Below, piece by piece: positions 121 to 64,000 of a DNA stretch of 64,000 nt. Below the pieces are notes generated by a model. The model saw only the letters and a program-made list of their open reading frames with translations. It searched no databases and was not told where the DNA came from. Position 1 is the first letter of the stretch, and the number at the start of each line of letters is the position of its first letter. Position numbers and translations under genes: made by a program. This DNA is from an uncultured virus (IMG/VR IMGVR_UViG_3300046808_000578) (taxonomy: Duplodnaviria; Heunggongvirae; Uroviricota; Caudoviricetes): the IMG/VR virus record IMGVR_UViG_3300046808_000578; one strand, given 5' to 3'.

Positions 121-204
121 TCACTGCCCGCTTAACCCTTCTGGGTTGGGCGGGCCCCATCAGTAGCTGAGACAACAACAACAACCAACCAACACAACAA
201 CAAC

Positions 205-3694: not shown

Positions 3695-3818
3695 ACCCTA
3701 CACGCACCACCAAGCTGGAAGTGGTCTGAGAGTGTAGCCCCCGTGCCCTGCAATGCCTATCCGGGTTGCAGGGTATCGGGCTGTATTCAAGACAGCGACA
3801 AACAACAACACACCAAGT

Positions 3819-52773: not shown

Positions 52774-53333
52774 TGAACTCAACGCTCATGACTGACCAAA
52801 TCAAAACGCTGGTTAGCTTGATGACTCAAGTGCGGGATAAGACTTGCGTGGAAGTACGAAACAAATCCCTCATGGAGTTCGTACAGACGTATGGTCTAAG
52901 CGGACCTGAGTTCGATGAAGTACTCGCATCAGCTCTGGCAACAAAAGGCTTCGATAAGGGTAAGCCCTTTACCACTACGCTGAATCAGGAAACGCGAATA
53001 GTAACGTACTCGCAGAAAAATGACAGTGATTTGCTTCTCGACAAAATCTGTGAGGCATACGATATCACCACAGACATGGGTCGATTGGCCCTTAAAGAAG
53101 CTCTGAAAAACCTGAATCTGTTTGACCGTAAACAACGGGATTACGGAAGTGGGAACATTGCAGACTTCGGTGAGATGGGTGTCTTGATTCGACTGAACGA
53201 TAAGATCAATCGGCTCAAGAACCTTCTCAAATCGCAAGCATCGGCAAACTTCGAGTCCGTGTCCGATACTTGGGATGACATCTCGAATTACGGACTCATT
53301 GGTAAACTATGCAACCTGAAGTTATGGAAGTGA
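52773..53333 (+). CDS. DUF1599/nucleotide-modification-associated domain protein
   Basis: RKQRDYG...IRLNDKINRL...ESVSDTWDDISNYG. Confidence 0.78.
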   Translation: MNSTLMTDQIKTLVSLMTQVRDKTCVEVRNKSLMEFVQTYGLSGPEFDEVLASALATKGFDKGKPFTTTLNQETRIVTYSQKNDSDLLLDKICEAYDITTDMGRLALKEALKNLNLFDRKQRDYGSGNIADFGEMGVLIRLNDKINRLKNLLKSQASANFESVSDTWDDISNYGLIGKLCNLKLWK

Positions 53334-53575
53334 TCATCGACTCCAACATCGAAATCCCGGCACAGGAAACTCGTGGCCGTTGGAAAAAGGCGCACGCCAA
53401 GTACCCAATGTCGAAGCTGAACGTCAAAGACTCGTTCTGGGTACCCAAAGCGCAGGGCCCCTCAATGCGGTGCACGGCATCTCGGTTTAAGCGGCAGAAC
53501 CCGGGGTGGAACTACACCGTCCGGTCTGAACAGAACGCAGGAGAAGACGGTTGCCGTATCTGGCGTACAGCCTAA
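53324..53575 (+). CDS. small putative DNA-binding phage protein
   Basis: NIEIP...KYPMSKLNVKDSF...RIWRT pattern. Confidence 0.65.
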   Translation: MEVIIDSNIEIPAQETRGRWKKAHAKYPMSKLNVKDSFWVPKAQGPSMRCTASRFKRQNPGWNYTVRSEQNAGEDGCRIWRTA

Positions 53576-53583
53576 ACAAATCC

Positions 53584-53717
53584 GGGGTTTGCTCGTATAG
53601 TGTCGTAGGAGATCTACGAACAGGTTACCTCAGTTGTGTTGTGCTGGGGTAGGGACGCGCGGAGTGGGTCCGCATAATCTCTTAACCGTTGTTAAATCGA
53701 GCAAACCCCCTTTTTTT
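53584..53717 (+). ncRNA. candidate structured small RNA (five-way junction ending in U tract)
   Basis: 12-bp closing helix GGGGTTTGCTCG/CGAGCAAACCCC enclosing four hairpins, then T7. Confidence 0.6.
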
Positions 53718-53727
53718 ACCCTAATAC

Positions 53728-55617
53728 ATGAGTACTTACGCGATTGATTTTGAAACCTTTTATTCTAAAGAATATTCAGTTACTGATCTTGGATATTACC
53801 ACTACGTAAATCACCCGGAATTCGATGCCTACATGGTTAGTATCGTAGGGGATGATGGCAACGAATACGTAGGGCCCCCCAATGGGTTCGACTGGGCGTG
53901 CATAAACGGGACCGTGTGGCTCTCGCACAACGCGAACTTCGACGGCATGGTCTACCAGAGACTCGTGGAAACCGGGGTGATCAGAGACTCGGTTCCATGC
54001 GAGTGGCACGACACAGCAGATTTGGTGGCTTACATGGGCGCACCAAGATCTCTCAAGGCCGCGATCGGCGCGTTGTATGGCGAGGAGGTCAGCAAGACTA
54101 CCCGCGACAACATGGCAGGGAAGCAGTGGAACGACATGCCTGAGTCGTTCAGACAAGAAGTAGCCGAGTACGCACTCAAGGACTCACGGTACTGCTTGAA
54201 GATCTGGAAGGACCACAGCCACAAATGGCCCCTGCACGAGAGGAAGTTGTCGAAACTTACCAGAGACATGTGCTGGGTTGGACTGCCTGTAGACCGCGAA
54301 GGTGTTGAGGAAGACATCCGCACACTGCAGCTTCTACTGTGGGAAACCCGCAAACGCATCCCGTGGGCAGATTCCGAAGACGCTGCGGTATTGAGCCCAA
54401 AGGCGTTGGCGGAAGAATGCCGTAAGCATGGGATCCGCGCCCCGCTGAGTCTGGCAAAAGACTCTGAAGACTTCGACAACTGGAAGAACGAGTTCTCTGA
54501 AAAGCACCCGTTCGCACAGGCAATGAGCGACTACCGCCGAATCAATGCCCTGTTGCTGAAGTACAAGACGATGGAAATGCGAATTCGTTCAAACGGGTTC
54601 ATGGGCTACGGAATGAAATACTTCGGTGCTCACACAGGACGATGGAGCGGAGACACAGGCTTCAACGTCCAGAACATGCCAAGAGCAGAACTGTTTGGTA
54701 TCAACCTCAGAAACCGCATCAAAGCCCCAGAAGGGAAAACCTTGGTGGTGTGTGACCTGTCCAACATCGAACCACGGTGTCTGGCTGTGCTGTCTGAGGA
54801 TACAGGCATGCTGACTGCCCTGCGTTCAGGGATGGACATCTACGAGGCACACGCCCGGGCGACTCTGAACTACACGGACAGCAGACCATTGAAGGAAGGA
54901 GACCCACTACTAAGGCAGGTGTCCAAAACACGGGTCCTCGGGCTAGGGTACGGGTGCGGATGGCACAAATTCGTCACCTTTGCCGAACAGCTTCTACCGC
55001 CGGAAGTGTACGAAAGTGTGTTCGGAGCGGAAGTATCCAAATCCGACAGAGTGAAATTCGTGGCTGCTCTGTCCAAGAGTAAGAAAAACGCGGATAAGCT
55101 GGAGCTGTTTAAGAGACTGCCAGAACCAAAACAGCGGTACTGGGTGAACTCTTGGAAGCAGGTTGAGGCGTACAGGGAATCCAACCCTGCGATCACGGAG
55201 TTCTGGAAAATGCTGGAACGGGACTTCAAGGCATCCGATGGGAAGCCGAACTACACCATCGAACTCCCGAATGGGCGTGTGCTCAAATACACCTCCCCTA
55301 AAAGCTACGGAGGTTCCAGCGCCCTGATGCAGCGGATGGGGAAGATGATGCGTGTTGCAATTCACGGAGGCATCCTCACAGAAAATGTTATTCAAGCAGT
55401 TGCACGTGATGTATTCGCAGACTGCTTACTGCGACTCGACCAAGCGGGTATTCAGGTGATCATGCACGCGCACGACGAAGCGGTTTGCATGGTGGACACA
55501 GACAAAGCCGACGAGAAGCTCAAGCTCATCGTGGACATCATGAGCACCCCGCCAACGTGGATGCCGGATCTGCCTCAAGCCGCAGAAGGAAAAACCACCG
55601 TCAGGTACGTAAAGTAA
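53728..55617 (+). CDS. polA: family A DNA polymerase with 3'-5' exonuclease
   Basis: DFET and HNANFD exo motifs, HTGRWS, motif A DLSNIEPR, motif B RQVSKTRVLGLGYG, motif C HAHDE. Confidence 0.93.
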   Translation: MSTYAIDFETFYSKEYSVTDLGYYHYVNHPEFDAYMVSIVGDDGNEYVGPPNGFDWACINGTVWLSHNANFDGMVYQRLVETGVIRDSVPCEWHDTADLVAYMGAPRSLKAAIGALYGEEVSKTTRDNMAGKQWNDMPESFRQEVAEYALKDSRYCLKIWKDHSHKWPLHERKLSKLTRDMCWVGLPVDREGVEEDIRTLQLLLWETRKRIPWADSEDAAVLSPKALAEECRKHGIRAPLSLAKDSEDFDNWKNEFSEKHPFAQAMSDYRRINALLLKYKTMEMRIRSNGFMGYGMKYFGAHTGRWSGDTGFNVQNMPRAELFGINLRNRIKAPEGKTLVVCDLSNIEPRCLAVLSEDTGMLTALRSGMDIYEAHARATLNYTDSRPLKEGDPLLRQVSKTRVLGLGYGCGWHKFVTFAEQLLPPEVYESVFGAEVSKSDRVKFVAALSKSKKNADKLELFKRLPEPKQRYWVNSWKQVEAYRESNPAITEFWKMLERDFKASDGKPNYTIELPNGRVLKYTSPKSYGGSSALMQRMGKMMRVAIHGGILTENVIQAVARDVFADCLLRLDQAGIQVIMHAHDEAVCMVDTDKADEKLKLIVDIMSTPPTWMPDLPQAAEGKTTVRYVK

Positions 55618-56818: not shown

Positions 56819-57099
56819 TGCAGGTAAATACCCGGTGGAACCACACCGTAAAACCATCCGTATTTGAAGTCGTCAAAGGAGGAGCCGTACTTCACAGCGG
56901 ATCTTACAAGGACGGGGTACGCATCTACGAGGTAGAGCTCCGCAAAGAGCGGTTCAGGAACAGCCTGTTCTGTCTTGTCTGCGGCACCCCATTCCAAATG
57001 CCGAAGTACTGGATTAAATTAACATGTTCTCCGAAATGCAGGGCGAAGCATGTCTCTAATCTGATAACAGGTATACCGTTTAAGAAAGCCTACAAGTAA
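56818..57099 (+). CDS. putative zinc-finger protein
   Basis: CLVCG...TCSPKC. Confidence 0.55.
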   Translation: MQVNTRWNHTVKPSVFEVVKGGAVLHSGSYKDGVRIYEVELRKERFRNSLFCLVCGTPFQMPKYWIKLTCSPKCRAKHVSNLITGIPFKKAYK

Positions 57100-57108
57100 C
57101 ACAACGCA

Positions 57109-59323: not shown

Positions 59324-59590
59324 CCTACAGGCGTAAATGCGTGAAAATGAGGGACTTACGCCATTTGAGTAGGAAAGTAGGAGAAGGGGGGATTTTCCAG
59401 AAACCCTTCTCTGGCTGGCTGGCCCGCTGCTGGCCTGCTGCTGGCCCGCTGCTGCCCTCCTATATATATATATATACTACTACTACTAATTATACTATAC
59501 CTACATCCCCTACTTCCCCTACTTATCCGCTCTGGTGGCGGGTTTGTCGGGTGTAGATGAAAAAACCGAACCCCTATATCGCCTACCCCA
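59324..59590. other. putative replication origin
   Basis: AGTAGG/CCTAC(T) repeats on either side of a (TA)8(CTA)4 tract, just after the primase gene. Confidence 0.5.
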
Positions 59591-59810: not shown

Positions 59811-60341
59811 TGCCGAGGGGCTAGTGACCCTGAGGCGGCGCGGTGAAAGCGGTGCCTGATCTTTGAAATTTAGACCCTGCAGGTAGAGCGGGGCGGCGAG
59901 TTGCGAGTGTGGCCAGAGCGCCCCGCCCGAAAGGGCACGAGGGAATAGTAAGTAGGCGCACCCATAGCAGACCGCCCCGTGTTCGGACCCGCCGAACCTA
60001 TCTGCAGACCCCGCTTTCTTGGGGGCGTAAAAGCAAGGAATGGCTCAGACTGGCCAAACGCTCATCCCGGCACCCATACAAGTTTTAGGTGCAACGGACC
60101 GCGAAGACGGGCCCCTAGCGAGGGGGCTTCTAGCGGGGATTCCCGGATGGCGCATTAGCTGCCCTCTGACAAGGCGCAAACCCTTAACCCTTAACCCGGA
60201 CCGCGCAAGCGGTCCCTGCAACCTAGGATCAGGCAAACGCGAAGCGAACGCCCCTAGGTGCCATGCGTTGCATGGCGGCAGTCCGCCCATCCCCTTGGCA
60301 AACTGGCAATCCCGCCAGCCCCACGGTTTCCGTGGGCGGAC
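59811..60341 (+). ncRNA. candidate large structured non-coding RNA/leader (~530 nt)
   Basis: Nested 9-12 bp long-range helices, GNRA-capped hairpins, crossing pairings; no credible ORF. Confidence 0.62.
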
Positions 60342-60349
60342 ATACCGTT

Positions 60350-60775
60350 ATGAACATTCTTGCAAAATTCGACTCCTCCCGCATTCAGACCAACGTGACC
60401 AAGTCCGGGAGAATTTCCGGGCAGACCCTCCACCACACGGGGGACGGGTCTACCGGGTTCGGCACGTTGCGTGCCCAAGGCAAGGCCTTGGGACTCAGCG
60501 GGTCCGCTCTCAAGGAGTGGATCTACAGTCAGGCGAGCGGGGACCGCGCCCAAGCGGCGCGGGAGGAAGCCCGCATCCTGTTCAATCTGGGTCTCGACCG
60601 GGGGCTTGTCCCCCAGAAGACGCAGGTGAAGAGCAATGGGGGTGCCGTGTTCACGCTCATTCCAGAGGCGAAAGCCCCGGCCACCCGTACCACCACCTGC
60701 GTGGACCCCGCCGCCATGGTGGCGGCGATGACGCCGGAACAGCGCGCCGCCCTTCTGGCGGCGCTGCAGGCTTAG
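60350..60775 (+). CDS. hypothetical early protein
   Basis: ATG 60350 directly after the structured element; followed by a GAAA hairpin. Confidence 0.65.
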   Translation: MNILAKFDSSRIQTNVTKSGRISGQTLHHTGDGSTGFGTLRAQGKALGLSGSALKEWIYSQASGDRAQAAREEARILFNLGLDRGLVPQKTQVKSNGGAVFTLIPEAKAPATRTTTCVDPAAMVAAMTPEQRAALLAALQA

Positions 60776-61352: not shown

Positions 61353-61468
61353 TGCACCCTTTTACCCTGTCACCCGGGTGCTTGGCAACCCCTTTGGGGG
61401 AAGCTAAGCCCCCTCTGTCCGCTTCCGGACAGCCTTTGTCCGCAACAACCAACCAACCAACACACACC

Positions 61469-61795: not shown

Positions 61796-61811
61796 GTTAA
61801 CACAACCAACC

Positions 61812-62045
61812 ATGAACACAACCAACGCATACACAACCCCGACTACGGGGTTGTTTGTCATCGTAACCGGGGGCGCTGCCCCACTGGAGTTTCCCCCGGG
61901 CTACCCGGCCCGTGTTGAGGATGGTCGCCTCATCGTCCATGACGAGGACCGTGGCGAAGCCCGTGTCGTCCTCGTCGTCCCTGAGGGGGGATGGTGCTCA
62001 CCCTCTGCGTGGCGGAACCAACCAACACAACCAACACAACCATGA
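61812..62045 (+). CDS. hypothetical early protein
   Basis: ATG after AACACAACCAACC. Confidence 0.55.
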   Translation: MNTTNAYTTPTTGLFVIVTGGAAPLEFPPGYPARVEDGRLIVHDEDRGEARVVLVVPEGGWCSPSAWRNQPTQPTQP

Positions 62046-62275
62046 ACAAATACCAAAAGCGTATCACGTACCCAAACGGGTACACCGCATCCATCGTCTG
62101 CCACTCGTTCTCCTACGGAGGGCACGAGGGCCTCTTCGAGGTCGCCGTGCTCGTAGGGGAGTCCCTCCATTACGACAACCCTGTAGCCCGGGGAGACGTC
62201 CTCGGGAATCTGGACTTCGCCGAAGTCGCCGAAGTCCTTGCGAGGATTGCTGCCCTGCCGCCAGTCAACCCCTAA
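62042..62275 (+). CDS. conserved phage hypothetical protein
   Basis: YPNGYTASIV...SYGGHEGLFEVAVL...DVLG pattern. Confidence 0.75.
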   Translation: MNKYQKRITYPNGYTASIVCHSFSYGGHEGLFEVAVLVGESLHYDNPVARGDVLGNLDFAEVAEVLARIAALPPVNP

Positions 62276-62924
62276 CCCAACACGCCATGAACACAACCCC
62301 ATCGCCCACCGCATCCCGCCTCCTTGCCCTCATGGTCAAGGGGGGCCACCGGCTCACCGTACACAGCAACAGGTTCCCCCGCCGGGGGAAGCACTACGTC
62401 CACGCCGTCGCAAAGGCGGCGGGCGTCCTGTCCCCCGCACCGAGGAGGGGCGAATGAGTCGCCCGAAACCAACGCCGCAGCAGGTAGCGGAGTGGGTAGT
62501 GGACGCCCTGCTGCAAGTCTCAAACGCCCCCGAGACGGGGGATCAAGACGAGTTCCTCCGGGGACTCGTCAACCTCGGAAGTTTGGCTTGGTACCTTGCC
62601 GGGCCGGATACGAGATACATCAACGAAACTTGGAACGTAGTAATGAAAGCTTATGAGAAGTGAATTGGTAGACGAACACAACGCCGCCCTACGAAGGGCA
62701 AGGGCCCTCGCCCGGTTTGACTGGTGTCTGGACCGAGTCCTGTGGATGGGACTCGGTATGTTGGCAATGGTGATCGCGGAGATTCTGTTCCTATGATCGC
62801 CAACCTCTTCGCGTTGTCCGGCCCCATCGGGATCGCCGGACTCATCGTATTGGCAATGTGGCTCCGTGAAACCGGAGCCGCGTTACTCTGAAACCCTGAA
62901 ACCTTGATTAGAAACAAAAAACAT

Positions 62925-63239
62925 ATGGAAACACCACAAGCAATACCAACCGAACTCATGGAAAAACTCCGCGCCGCTGGCGTGGAATCCTTCACCCTCT
63001 CGTTCTGGGGAGGTTCGGACGAGGGATACCTGTACCTCGTCGGAATACCGTATGAACTGGAGAAGGCGGTCGAGGACTGGGCATGGCGGGCATACCAGTA
63101 CTCCGGTGCCGGGGACGGAGAAAACTATGGTGACGACATCACCTACAACCTCAAGGATGGAACGGTTAAGTGCTCCGACTGGTACATGGAGAGGCAAGAG
63201 GGGGACACAGAAACCCATATGCTGGAGGGGCTGGAATGA
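62925..63239 (+). CDS. DUF6878-like protein
   Basis: AAGV..FTLSFWGGSDEG pattern; adjacent to a DUF6915-like gene. Confidence 0.6.
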   Translation: METPQAIPTELMEKLRAAGVESFTLSFWGGSDEGYLYLVGIPYELEKAVEDWAWRAYQYSGAGDGENYGDDITYNLKDGTVKCSDWYMERQEGDTETHMLEGLE

Positions 63240-63604: not shown

Positions 63605-63703
63605 AACCCTGAACCCCTGCATCCCTGCGGCCCAGTGTCACAGGGGTGCAGCCTTCAGGGCTTAGCTCATGGTGAGCTAACCTTGATTAGAAACAAAAAA
63701 CAT

Positions 63704-64000
63704 ATGAAACCACTGAAACAACTCATCGAAGCCCGGGTCTGCCCGGCCACCACAGAAACCGGCGCCAGCGCCCGTGTCAGGGTCCGTGTCCGCGGGCCCA
63801 AAGGAATAAAATTCTACCCGTATACCTACGAGGTGGACGACGAAGCCCGCCATGCGGCGGAGAGGTACGCTGAGATGGTGCTGGGTGAAGAAGTCGTGGA
63901 GGAAGTGGACGCGCCCCACGTCCCGGGCGGCGTGCGGTACTTCACCGCCACCATAACGTACGCAACGCCGGAATCGTTCGCGTCTGGGTTGCCGCCCAAG
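63704..64000 (+). CDS. hypothetical protein, open at window end
   Basis: ATG 63704 after a duplicated 28-bp leader; 99 codons with no stop, ending ...SGLPPK. Confidence 0.65.
   Translation, partial: MKPLKQLIEARVCPATTETGASARVRVRVRGPKGIKFYPYTYEVDDEARHAAERYAEMVLGEEVVEEVDAPHVPGGVRYFTATITYATPESFASGLPPK

What the first reader, a model, noticed from the sequence alone, without database searches (positions are those of the whole stretch)
53584..53717. Five-way-junction small RNA before polA whose G/U loop is complementary to the C/A-rich leaders of early genes
Seen: a perfect 12-bp closing helix (53584-95/53698-709) and a T7 tail enclose four hairpins: TCGTAG/CTACGA 53603-19, TACCTCAG/CTGGGGTA 53626-51, GCGGA/TCCGC 53659-73, TTAAC/GTTAA 53682-95. 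GTTGTGTTG (53633-41, almost all in the second loop) is the exact reverse complement of CAACACAAC at 190-198 (MoxR leader), 62023-31 and 62032-40; 8-nt matches lie at 61799-806 and at 57098-105 just before the primase ATG. Known: the enterobacterial sRNA GcvB represses many mRNAs by pairing a G/U-rich seed with C/A-rich translational enhancers. Inference: a phage-encoded trans-acting RNA made with the replication genes that shuts down early-gene translation, or a cis attenuator for polA.
Basis: partly seen in the sequence, partly recalled or inferred. Interest (0 to 1): 0.78.

Follow-up and report, generated by a model that had tools for sequence, protein, structure and literature searches.

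The report
Phage RNA with swappable targeting loop
This stretch is one member of a widespread, apparently undescribed family of small folded RNAs in bacterial viruses, whose fixed core carries a changeable loop that tends to match the start regions of the virus's own genes, hinting at a re-aimable switch for protein making.

Summary
The coordinates and matches are real. The element is a long-insert member of a large phage RNA family with no Rfam match: a three-way junction of closing helix P1, an RTRGTG strand, a 6-bp hairpin capped by GAGAN, ACRGG...CC helix P3 and a 3' GAAAC/TAAAT strand. Two capped scans plus homologue searches gave 163 distinct copies (111 non-redundant) with strong compensatory change. 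The 'five-way junction' is wrong: hairpin 4 is not conserved. The G/U 'seed' is not conserved either; it lies in the hypervariable P3 insert. But family-wide that insert is U-rich, A-poor, and its loops pair with start regions of the same phage's genes about 1.6-2 times more than shuffled loops or unrelated phages' genes; this held in a pre-declared second set of 29 genomes (p 0.002-0.004). The effect is modest, and half of 38 independent phage groups show no hit. In this phage the loop matches 7 of 72 starts, 6 in the putative early arm, none of 26 structural genes. Cis control of polA is not supported. Best reading: a co-transcribed antisense RNA with a conserved chaperone-like core and a re-aimed loop (about 50%). 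No RNA data show it.

The parts
53584..53595 (+). P1 closing helix, 5' strand (starts 9 nt after the stop of the upstream gene)
   Evidence: P1 covaries across the family (7 of 7 pairs with two-sided change)
53596..53602 (+). Conserved junction strand TATAGTG (family ATGGTG; the A at family position 5 covaries with T in the 3' junction strand); GT pairs with AC 53620-21, G53602 bulged
53603..53621 (+). P2: 6-bp stem with the GAGAT loop at 53609-13 (family GAGAN)
   Evidence: (86 of 90 unbiased 17-nt spacers have GAGAN)
53622..53626 (+). Conserved ACRGG motif / P3 5' strand, pairs with 53684-87
53627..53650 (+). Variable insert, hairpin with the G/U-rich loop 53635-42: proposed guide (seed)
   Evidence: differs in the closest homologues
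53651..53682 (+). Variable insert, second arm (inner hairpin 53659-73); not conserved
53684..53697 (+).
53698..53717 (+). P1 3' strand and U-rich tail (possible partial terminator or processing end)
   Evidence: no standard terminator called; U-rich tail in 29 of 111 members
53309..53575 (+). Upstream 88-aa gene, last of the putative ssDNA-binding/replication gene run from which the RNA would be co-transcribed
   Evidence: same order in L046
53728..55617 (+). Family A DNA polymerase gene, 10 nt after the tail
190..198 (+).
3805..3812 (+). Predicted target: 8-nt match before ATG 3819
57098..57105 (+). Predicted target: 8-nt match before the primase ATG 57109 (best duplex energy, -12.9 kcal/mol)
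61458..61464 (+). Predicted target: 7-nt match before ATG 61469
61799..61822 (+). Predicted target: two 8-nt matches flanking ATG 61812
62023..62040 (+). Predicted target: two tandem 9-nt matches before ATG 62042
62290..62297 (+). Predicted target: 8-nt match directly after ATG 62287

Best explanation
The element is a member of a widespread phage small-RNA family built as a conserved three-way-junction scaffold plus a hypervariable loop. SHOWN (sequence comparison): the family, its fold, its strand, its usual place just behind the stop codon of a same-strand gene, and the variability of the P3 insert. SUPPORTED STATISTICALLY: the insert loops are complementary to translation-start regions of the same phage (anti-Shine-Dalgarno loops in some phages with purine-rich leaders, G/U loops in phages with C/A-rich leaders, anti-AUG loops in others). 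INFERRED: the RNA is released from the 3' end of an operon (P1 protects both ends), the loop pairs 7-10 nt with leaders of several phage mRNAs (possibly host mRNAs with like leaders too) and blocks 30S loading; the invariant core (junction strands and GAGA loop) holds the loop ready and either docks on the short loop-mRNA helix or binds a host factor, doing the job Hfq does for classical sRNAs. In this phage the RNA would be made with the replication genes and damp the C/A-leader genes of the putative early arm and primase.
For: Family and fold: 94 of 120 pattern hits have all 5 unconstrained P2 pairs complementary; 86 of 90 loop-unconstrained hits have GAGAN, closing pair G-C 61, C-G 19, A-T 7; 86.5% of cells paired vs 62.6% shuffled, 0 of 500, slid controls 37-52%; 24 G-U wobbles vs 1 A-C among 366 P2 cells in the unbiased set, fixing the strand. 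A model built without the window finds this element as the only window hit (E 1.2e-4). Context: 30 of 61 members start within 20 nt of an upstream same-strand stop; neighbours are unrelated gene types. Loops: unpaired U 0.40, A 0.155 vs flanks 0.205, 0.232. Targeting, window left out: discovery 33 vs 13.6 expected, p 0.018; pre-declared replication (note) 41 vs 22.9, p 0.004 and 25 vs 12.4, p 0.002; pooled 74 vs 45.4+-7.8 for shuffled loops, 0 of 120; vs dinucleotide shuffles 53.2+-8.0, p 0.007; no excess in coding interiors, 314 vs 345; 38 independent groups 43 vs 30, p 0.033. This phage: 6 of 33 early-arm starts, 1 of 13 replication starts, 0 of 26 structural starts. Two copies with different loops in several genomes. 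Hfq found in only 3 of 20 bacterial genomes carrying the RNA; no phage protein family is shared by more than 19 of 68 carrier genomes.
Against: The first two versions of the test were null: whole variable region (median rank 0.5; p 0.13-0.40) and leader k-mer log-odds (p 0.14-0.61). The loop-only, 7-mer setting was chosen after looking; 8-mers were null in replication (p 0.19, 0.65) and the sense-strand control was weakly positive there (p 0.03-0.12), though null pooled. 19 to 23 of 38 groups have no hit. In the automated pipeline the window itself is not above shuffles (4 of 97 vs 3.3, p 0.47); with hand-corrected starts p 0.06. Inserts of the two closest relatives do not beat shuffles on this phage's starts (4 of 33 vs 4.1; 2 of 33 vs 4.5), and their own early regions were not available. 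Hit genes family-wide are not shorter or otherwise 'early' and include structural genes. Gene calls came from my own simple caller. An 8-nt loop on a stiff hairpin is a short seed. Nothing shows expression, ends or repression.
Confidence: 0.5

Rival explanations
1. Protein- or ribosome-binding RNA (decoy, sponge or antitermination-type element): the invariant junction and GAGA loop are the whole function; the insert is a tolerated spacer, and its mild match to leaders is a by-product of composition or of binding a U-rich-preferring protein.
For: About 17 invariant or near-invariant unpaired or non-canonical positions and two non-canonical covariations (A/A vs G/U; G/G vs A/U) point to a precise tertiary surface. 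Insert length runs from 7 to about 60 nt. Half of the groups show no target hit. Some copies sit next to tRNA or tmRNA genes.
Against: Cognate excess survives mono- and dinucleotide shuffles and unrelated-phage controls; unpaired inserts are U-rich and A-poor, unlike ordinary loops (own knowledge); no shared phage protein.
Confidence: 0.27
2. Catalytic RNA: a new self-cleaving or mRNA-cleaving ribozyme that processes operon ends or cuts the paired target.
For: Small, highly conserved core in unrelated gene contexts, often directly behind stop codons and sometimes in tandem, as for small ribozymes (own knowledge). The two P1-proximal junction strands resemble hairpin-ribozyme loop B (recalled resemblance).
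Against: No Rfam ribozyme match. Under my recalled mapping the positions equivalent to A38 and A24 vary (G in 14, T in 16 of 151) whereas they are invariant in 941 hairpin ribozymes (PMC8216279, passages), and no loop A exists. Similar terminator-followed motifs did not self-cleave (PMC5737381, passages).
Confidence: 0.1
3. Cis regulator (attenuator, riboswitch or translational operator) of the downstream gene, here polA.
For: Sits 10 nt before polA in the window and before polA in 6 other distinct lineages among 194 polA loci. Relatives without it have a plain hairpin there whose loop tends to match their own polA start (4.7 vs 4.1 nt, p 0.005, n 38). U7 tail.
Against: Family-wide no match to the downstream start (4.27 vs 4.18 nt, p 0.56, 86 members); 16 of 61 members are followed by an opposite-strand ORF and several by their own terminator or promoter-like site; window insert matches the polA start by only 5 nt; no competing antiterminator was seen.
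Confidence: 0.08
4. Passive 3' stabiliser/partial terminator, or a single-stranded DNA structure, with no further role.
For: Occupies the place of plain terminator-like hairpins in most polA relatives.
Against: A stabiliser needs no invariant junction bases; G-U tolerance and coding-strand placement favour RNA.
Confidence: 0.05

Closest known systems
GcvB (enterobacterial Hfq-dependent sRNA)
   Same: Proposed action: a G/U-rich stretch pairs with ACA-type translation enhancers of several mRNAs (PMC3879156, abstract seen).
   Different: No Rfam match; GcvB's seed is conserved and Hfq-dependent (PMC4474525 abstract; own knowledge), here the seed is hypervariable, held in a hairpin on a conserved three-way junction, encoded by phages, and 17 of 20 carrier genomes gave no Hfq match.
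Phage trans-acting sRNAs VpdS, PreS, DicF, sar
   Same: Phage-encoded small RNAs acting by pairing near start codons (PMC12197685, passages seen).
   Different: Each is confined to one phage group, mostly Hfq-bound, with a fixed seed; none is described there as a cross-phylum structural family.
drum, skipping-rope, DUF3800-I, FuFi-1 orphan motifs
   Same: Small, highly conserved, rarely in 5' UTRs, followed by terminators (PMC5737381, passages seen).
   Different: No Rfam hit for 20 carrier loci or the window; no tied protein family found (those motifs have one); a U-rich tail in only 29 of 111.
Hairpin ribozyme
   Same: Recalled likeness of the two junction strands next to P1 to loop B.
   Different: Catalytically invariant positions are not kept under that mapping; no loop A; different topology.

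Membership tests
Any Rfam 15 family | cmscan match at gathering score | tested here: not met
   window, 53500-53800 at E<=10, 20 carrier loci, minimal copy at E<=10: none for the element
New GAGA-loop three-way-junction family (this report) | RTRGTG - 6-bp stem with GAGAN loop - ACRGG ... CC - GAAAC/TAAAT inside P1 | tested here: met
   model R1 built without the window scores it 25.1 bits, E 1.2e-4, only hit in the window; homologue L046 35.1 bits full length; covarying A/T form kept
GcvB | Sequence/structure match to the GcvB model | tested here: not met
GcvB | Conserved G/U-rich seed | tested here: not met
   9-mer in 1 of 111 members; differs in L046 and L135
Trans-acting antisense sRNA (works-like class) | Exposed region complementary to start regions of several mRNAs beyond chance | tested here: met
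   family level; for the window alone inconclusive
Trans-acting antisense sRNA (works-like class) | Discrete transcript | tested here: inconclusive
   only contigs of RNA runs could be laid; they cannot show ends or a small RNA
Trans-acting antisense sRNA (works-like class) | Seed-dependent repression, rescued by compensatory change | not testable with these tools
   needs reporters
Hfq-dependent sRNA | Hfq in the host | tested here: not met
   3 of 20 carrier genomes; most are MAGs of unstated completeness, and this phage's host is unknown
Hairpin ribozyme | Invariant G+1, G8, A22-A24, C25, A38 in loops A and B | tested here: not met
   invariance from PMC8216279; equivalents of A38 and A24 vary (mapping recalled); no loop A
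Riboswitch / attenuator | Consistent 5' UTR position before one functional gene class, with an expression platform | tested here: not met
Self-cleaving ribozyme (any class) | Site-specific cleavage | not testable with these tools
   needs in vitro transcription

The most novel reading that the evidence does not exclude
A naturally re-programmable, chaperone-free guide RNA spread among phages of many phyla: a fixed RNA core that itself grips (or cuts, or loads a host factor onto) a short loop-mRNA helix, with the loop re-tuned in each phage to its own translation-start signature, giving a general RNA-only timer of phage gene expression in hosts without Hfq.
Probability: 0.3. Interest if true: 0.92.

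Novelty: new variant of a known kind. Interest (0 to 1): 0.74.

Why it matters
If the loop is a guide, it would be a case of a small-RNA family that keeps its scaffold and changes its seed with the leaders of its own genome, it would say how phages of Hfq-less, Shine-Dalgarno-poor hosts switch off genes after transcription, and it would offer a 75-nt portable scaffold for programmable knock-down in such bacteria. The test is cheap: the minimal RNA, a leader reporter and loop swaps.

Tried and rejected
Exact search for the seed hairpin in viral contigs: 8 hits, none in this structure. blastn of the element or of minimal copies against cultured phages and plasmids: only short chance matches or none; no cultured close relative of the polymerase (best about 25%), so the host is unknown; a prophage scan with the polymerase found none. 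RNA runs (4 of 24 listed runs laid, contigs only): X18 holds phage RNA contigs, the one in this operon ends at 53534 and no listed piece covers the element (21 of 50 pieces shown); X19 covers 53169-53318 only; X20 is probably DNA; a hole proves nothing and depth cannot rank genes. Promoter inside the element: TAAACA-17-TATAGT scores 9 of 12, 2 sites found vs 1.7 expected, and the family has ATGGTG there: rejected. CsrA/RsmA sponge: one GGA, half in the stem, and lost in the 26 of 90 copies closed by C-G or A-T: rejected. Family-wide anti-AUG enrichment in the insert: CAT 20 vs 20.2: none. G/U 4-mer enrichment is strong against base shuffles but mostly weak against dinucleotide shuffles (TTGT p 0.01-0.02, others 0.09-0.7). 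Target tests that were null: whole insert; log-odds. One insert was mis-extracted (G004) and corrected. Shared partner protein: none. Rows dropped: 24 of 120 hits with under 4 of 5 pairs; loops under 7 nt or fully paired inserts (57 of 71 non-window inserts entered the 7-mer test); 67 of the 93 records found were fetched, some only in part; L047 is a member by eye only (model missed it). Literature: 9 searches that ran found no description of this motif; seen as listings except PMC8216279, PMC12197685, PMC5737381 (passages), PMC3879156 (abstract), 10.64898/2026.09.22.753630 (abstract, one section), 10.64898/2026.10.21.760802 (abstract, term search), PMC10690425 (6 supplementary files searched for six core words, no hit; files 1, 2 and 4 not searched). 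The supplement of PMC5737381 and bioRxiv supplements and databases could not be seen; the motif may be listed unnamed there.

Full report
OBSERVATION. The 141-nt region folds well above dinucleotide shuffles (z -3.84). It lies in a phage genome between an 88-aa gene (stop 53575) and a family A DNA polymerase (start 53728), inside a replication module with helicase-exonuclease and primase. The window has no Rfam or tRNA hit. Identical or near-identical DNA is held by freshwater metagenome runs.

HOMOLOGUES CHANGE THE PICTURE. A relative with the same gene order (L046, polymerase 76% identical) keeps P1, TATAGTG, the GAGAT hairpin and TGTTAAAT, but has a different second hairpin loop. A second relative (L135, 74%) has a wholly different insert. 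Among 194 polymerase loci with upstream sequence, 8 loci (6 distinct sequences) carry the GAGA-loop element; most others carry a plain hairpin. A second pattern that left P2 free gave 103 distinct hits; of 90 with a 17-nt spacer, 86 have the loop GAGAN and the closing pair is G-C 61, C-G 19, A-T 7. In GTDB genomes 21 of 36 hits have all five pairs, 7 of them in records labelled Verrucomicrobia, the rest spread over Acidobacteria, Planctomycetota, Actinomycetota, Nitrospira, Myxococcota and others (bins may be misassigned); 5 of 18 of these loci showed a clear phage or integrase gene among the 2-3 proteins scanned. In all, 163 distinct copies, 111 non-redundant.

ANATOMY. On 48 short members the consensus is a three-way junction with a covariation term of -3.97 kcal/mol; 86.5% of cells pair against 62.6% in shuffles (0 of 500) and 37-52% in slid controls (P2 was part of the selection for this alignment, P1 was not). 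G-U outnumbers A-C 24 to 1 in the unbiased set, fixing the strand. Two non-canonical covariations link the junction strands, and the window has the rarer A/T form of one of them. A model built without the window finds the element as its only window hit (E 1.2e-4) and the pre-polA relatives at E 9e-12 to 0.015. In the window the family fold (P3 = 53623-26/53684-87) is 1.8 kcal/mol above the minimum. Twenty carrier loci and a minimal copy gave no Rfam match for the element.

CONTEXT. Of 61 members with flanks, 52 have a same-strand ORF upstream and 30 start within 20 nt of its stop; downstream lies a same-strand ORF in 45 and an opposite-strand one in 16 (crude ORF calls). Neighbours include RusA, endolysin, terminase, replication initiator, helicase, primase, portal and Erf genes. 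Most records hold one copy, some two. No protein cluster occurs in more than 19 of 68 carrier genomes. Hfq was found in 3 of 20 bacterial carriers. This fits an independent RNA carried at operon ends, not a leader of one gene class.

IS THE VARIABLE LOOP A GUIDE? Unpaired insert bases are 40% U and 15.5% A against 20.5% and 23.2% in flanks. I fetched carrier records and asked whether insert loops are complementary to start regions of the same record. Tests on the whole insert and on leader k-mer scores were null. Predicted loops alone, 7-nt matches, window left out, gave 33 hits vs 13.6 expected from coding interiors, non-cognate ratio 1.32, permutation p 0.018 (-30..+15) and p 0.089 (-20..+6). 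I fixed this setting in the notebook and repeated it on 29 new records: 41 vs 22.9, p 0.004, and 25 vs 12.4, p 0.002; 8-mers were null and the sense control was weakly positive (p 0.03-0.12). Pooled, real loops give 74 hits vs 45.4 +- 7.8 for base-shuffled loops (0 of 120), 53.2 +- 8.0 for dinucleotide shuffles (p 0.007) and 50.4 expected from unrelated phages, with no excess inside genes (314 vs 345). Collapsed to 38 independent groups without the window's group, 43 vs 30 (p 0.033) and 28.5 vs 16.6 (p 0.02), but 19 and 23 groups have no hit. Examples: G064 loop GCGTTGTTG with CACAACAAC before ATG; G056 loop CGTCTCCTGG with GGAGGAGACG; G055 has two copies matching CAACCAA and CACATGA starts. 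Hit genes are mixed in size and type. The signal is real but modest; many records are fragments and my gene caller is simple, which would dilute a true signal, but by-products of composition are not fully excluded.

THIS PHAGE. With starts corrected by eye, the 12-nt loop matches at least 7 nt in 7 of 72 starts: 6 of 33 in the arm running from 60.3 kb across the window end to 11 kb (called early by layout only), primase, and 0 of 26 structural genes (Fisher p 0.043; against shuffled loops p 0.06). Among 18 A/C-rich leaders 5 have 8-nt matches (shuffles 0.76, p 0.017; random genomic 12-mers p 0.0007). In the automated pipeline, which misses several of these small genes, the window is not above shuffles (p 0.47). 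The L046 insert has a 10-nt match to the 61469 start and 7-nt matches to 62925 and 63704 of this phage, but 4 of 33 is no more than its shuffles give.

CIS MODEL. No family-wide match to the next gene's start (p 0.56, 86 members); 5 nt for polA here; no standard terminator. polA has no room for its own promoter, so read-through past P1 is needed (inference); a free RNA would arise by partial termination or processing.

MECHANISM AND ODDS. Shown: a conserved RNA fold with a variable loop. Supported: loops track own start regions. Inferred: trans pairing that blocks initiation, as GcvB does on ACA enhancers (PMC3879156, abstract), with the core replacing a chaperone (0.5). Rivals: protein- or ribosome-binding RNA with an idle insert (0.27), ribozyme (0.1), cis regulator (0.08), passive end structure or DNA element (0.05). 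It is not GcvB, not a hairpin ribozyme (PMC8216279, passages; mapping recalled) and matches no Rfam family. Nine literature searches found no description; unread supplements and databases may list it. RNA-run contigs could not test expression.

VERDICT. Interest 0.74.

Noticed in passing
window 59819-60163 (+/- not known): The RNA contig with the highest listed depth (53.9) in metatranscriptome run X18 lies in this hairpin-rich stretch ahead of the putative early genes; no Rfam match, folding z only -1.69, no homologue in fetched loci. Possible second non-coding RNA or early leader; contig depth is a poor measure.
   Followed up: partly
L003, L004, L139, L182, L196, L201, L206 and others, 10-60 nt before polA: Polymerase relatives without the three-way junction have a plain hairpin at the same place whose loop is U-rich (48% U, 9% G) and enriched in CAT (20 of 60 vs 9.7) and CCAT (11 vs 2.2); loops match their own polA start somewhat better than other polA starts (p 0.005, related sequences, one artefact row): possible pseudoknot over the start codon or a bare anti-start RNA.
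   Followed up: partly
G013, G022, G040, G047, G051, G055; L479/L480: Two copies per genome, usually with different loops; tandem 84 nt apart in G047, inverted about 1.4-1.7 kb apart in L479 and G051.
   Followed up: partly
L215:654-812, L223:1334-1540: Copies directly upstream of a tRNA gene and of a tmRNA-like gene piece.
   Followed up: no
window 62025-62304: A strain variant (run X15) has insertions at 62032, 62279, 62298 and 62304, inside the predicted target leaders, and 60180-60749 replaced by 574 other letters: early leaders appear to vary fast.
   Followed up: no
window 62899-62927 and 63678-63706: The same 29-nt leader (ending AAAAAACATATG) precedes two early-arm genes.
   Followed up: no
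window 59460-59520: AT-rich simple repeats (TA and CTA runs, then a CCTAC-type repeat) between primase and the early arm; possible origin or genome end.
   Followed up: no
P0014, P0015 (L135-type polymerases): Close polymerase relatives diverge abruptly after the KTRVLG motif, as expected for an intein or intron insertion (interpretation from own knowledge).
   Followed up: no
L483:3001-3050: A copy in Luteolibacter pohnpeiensis beside housekeeping-like genes with no phage hallmark among the three proteins scanned: the family may also be chromosomal, and this is a cultured carrier.
   Followed up: partly
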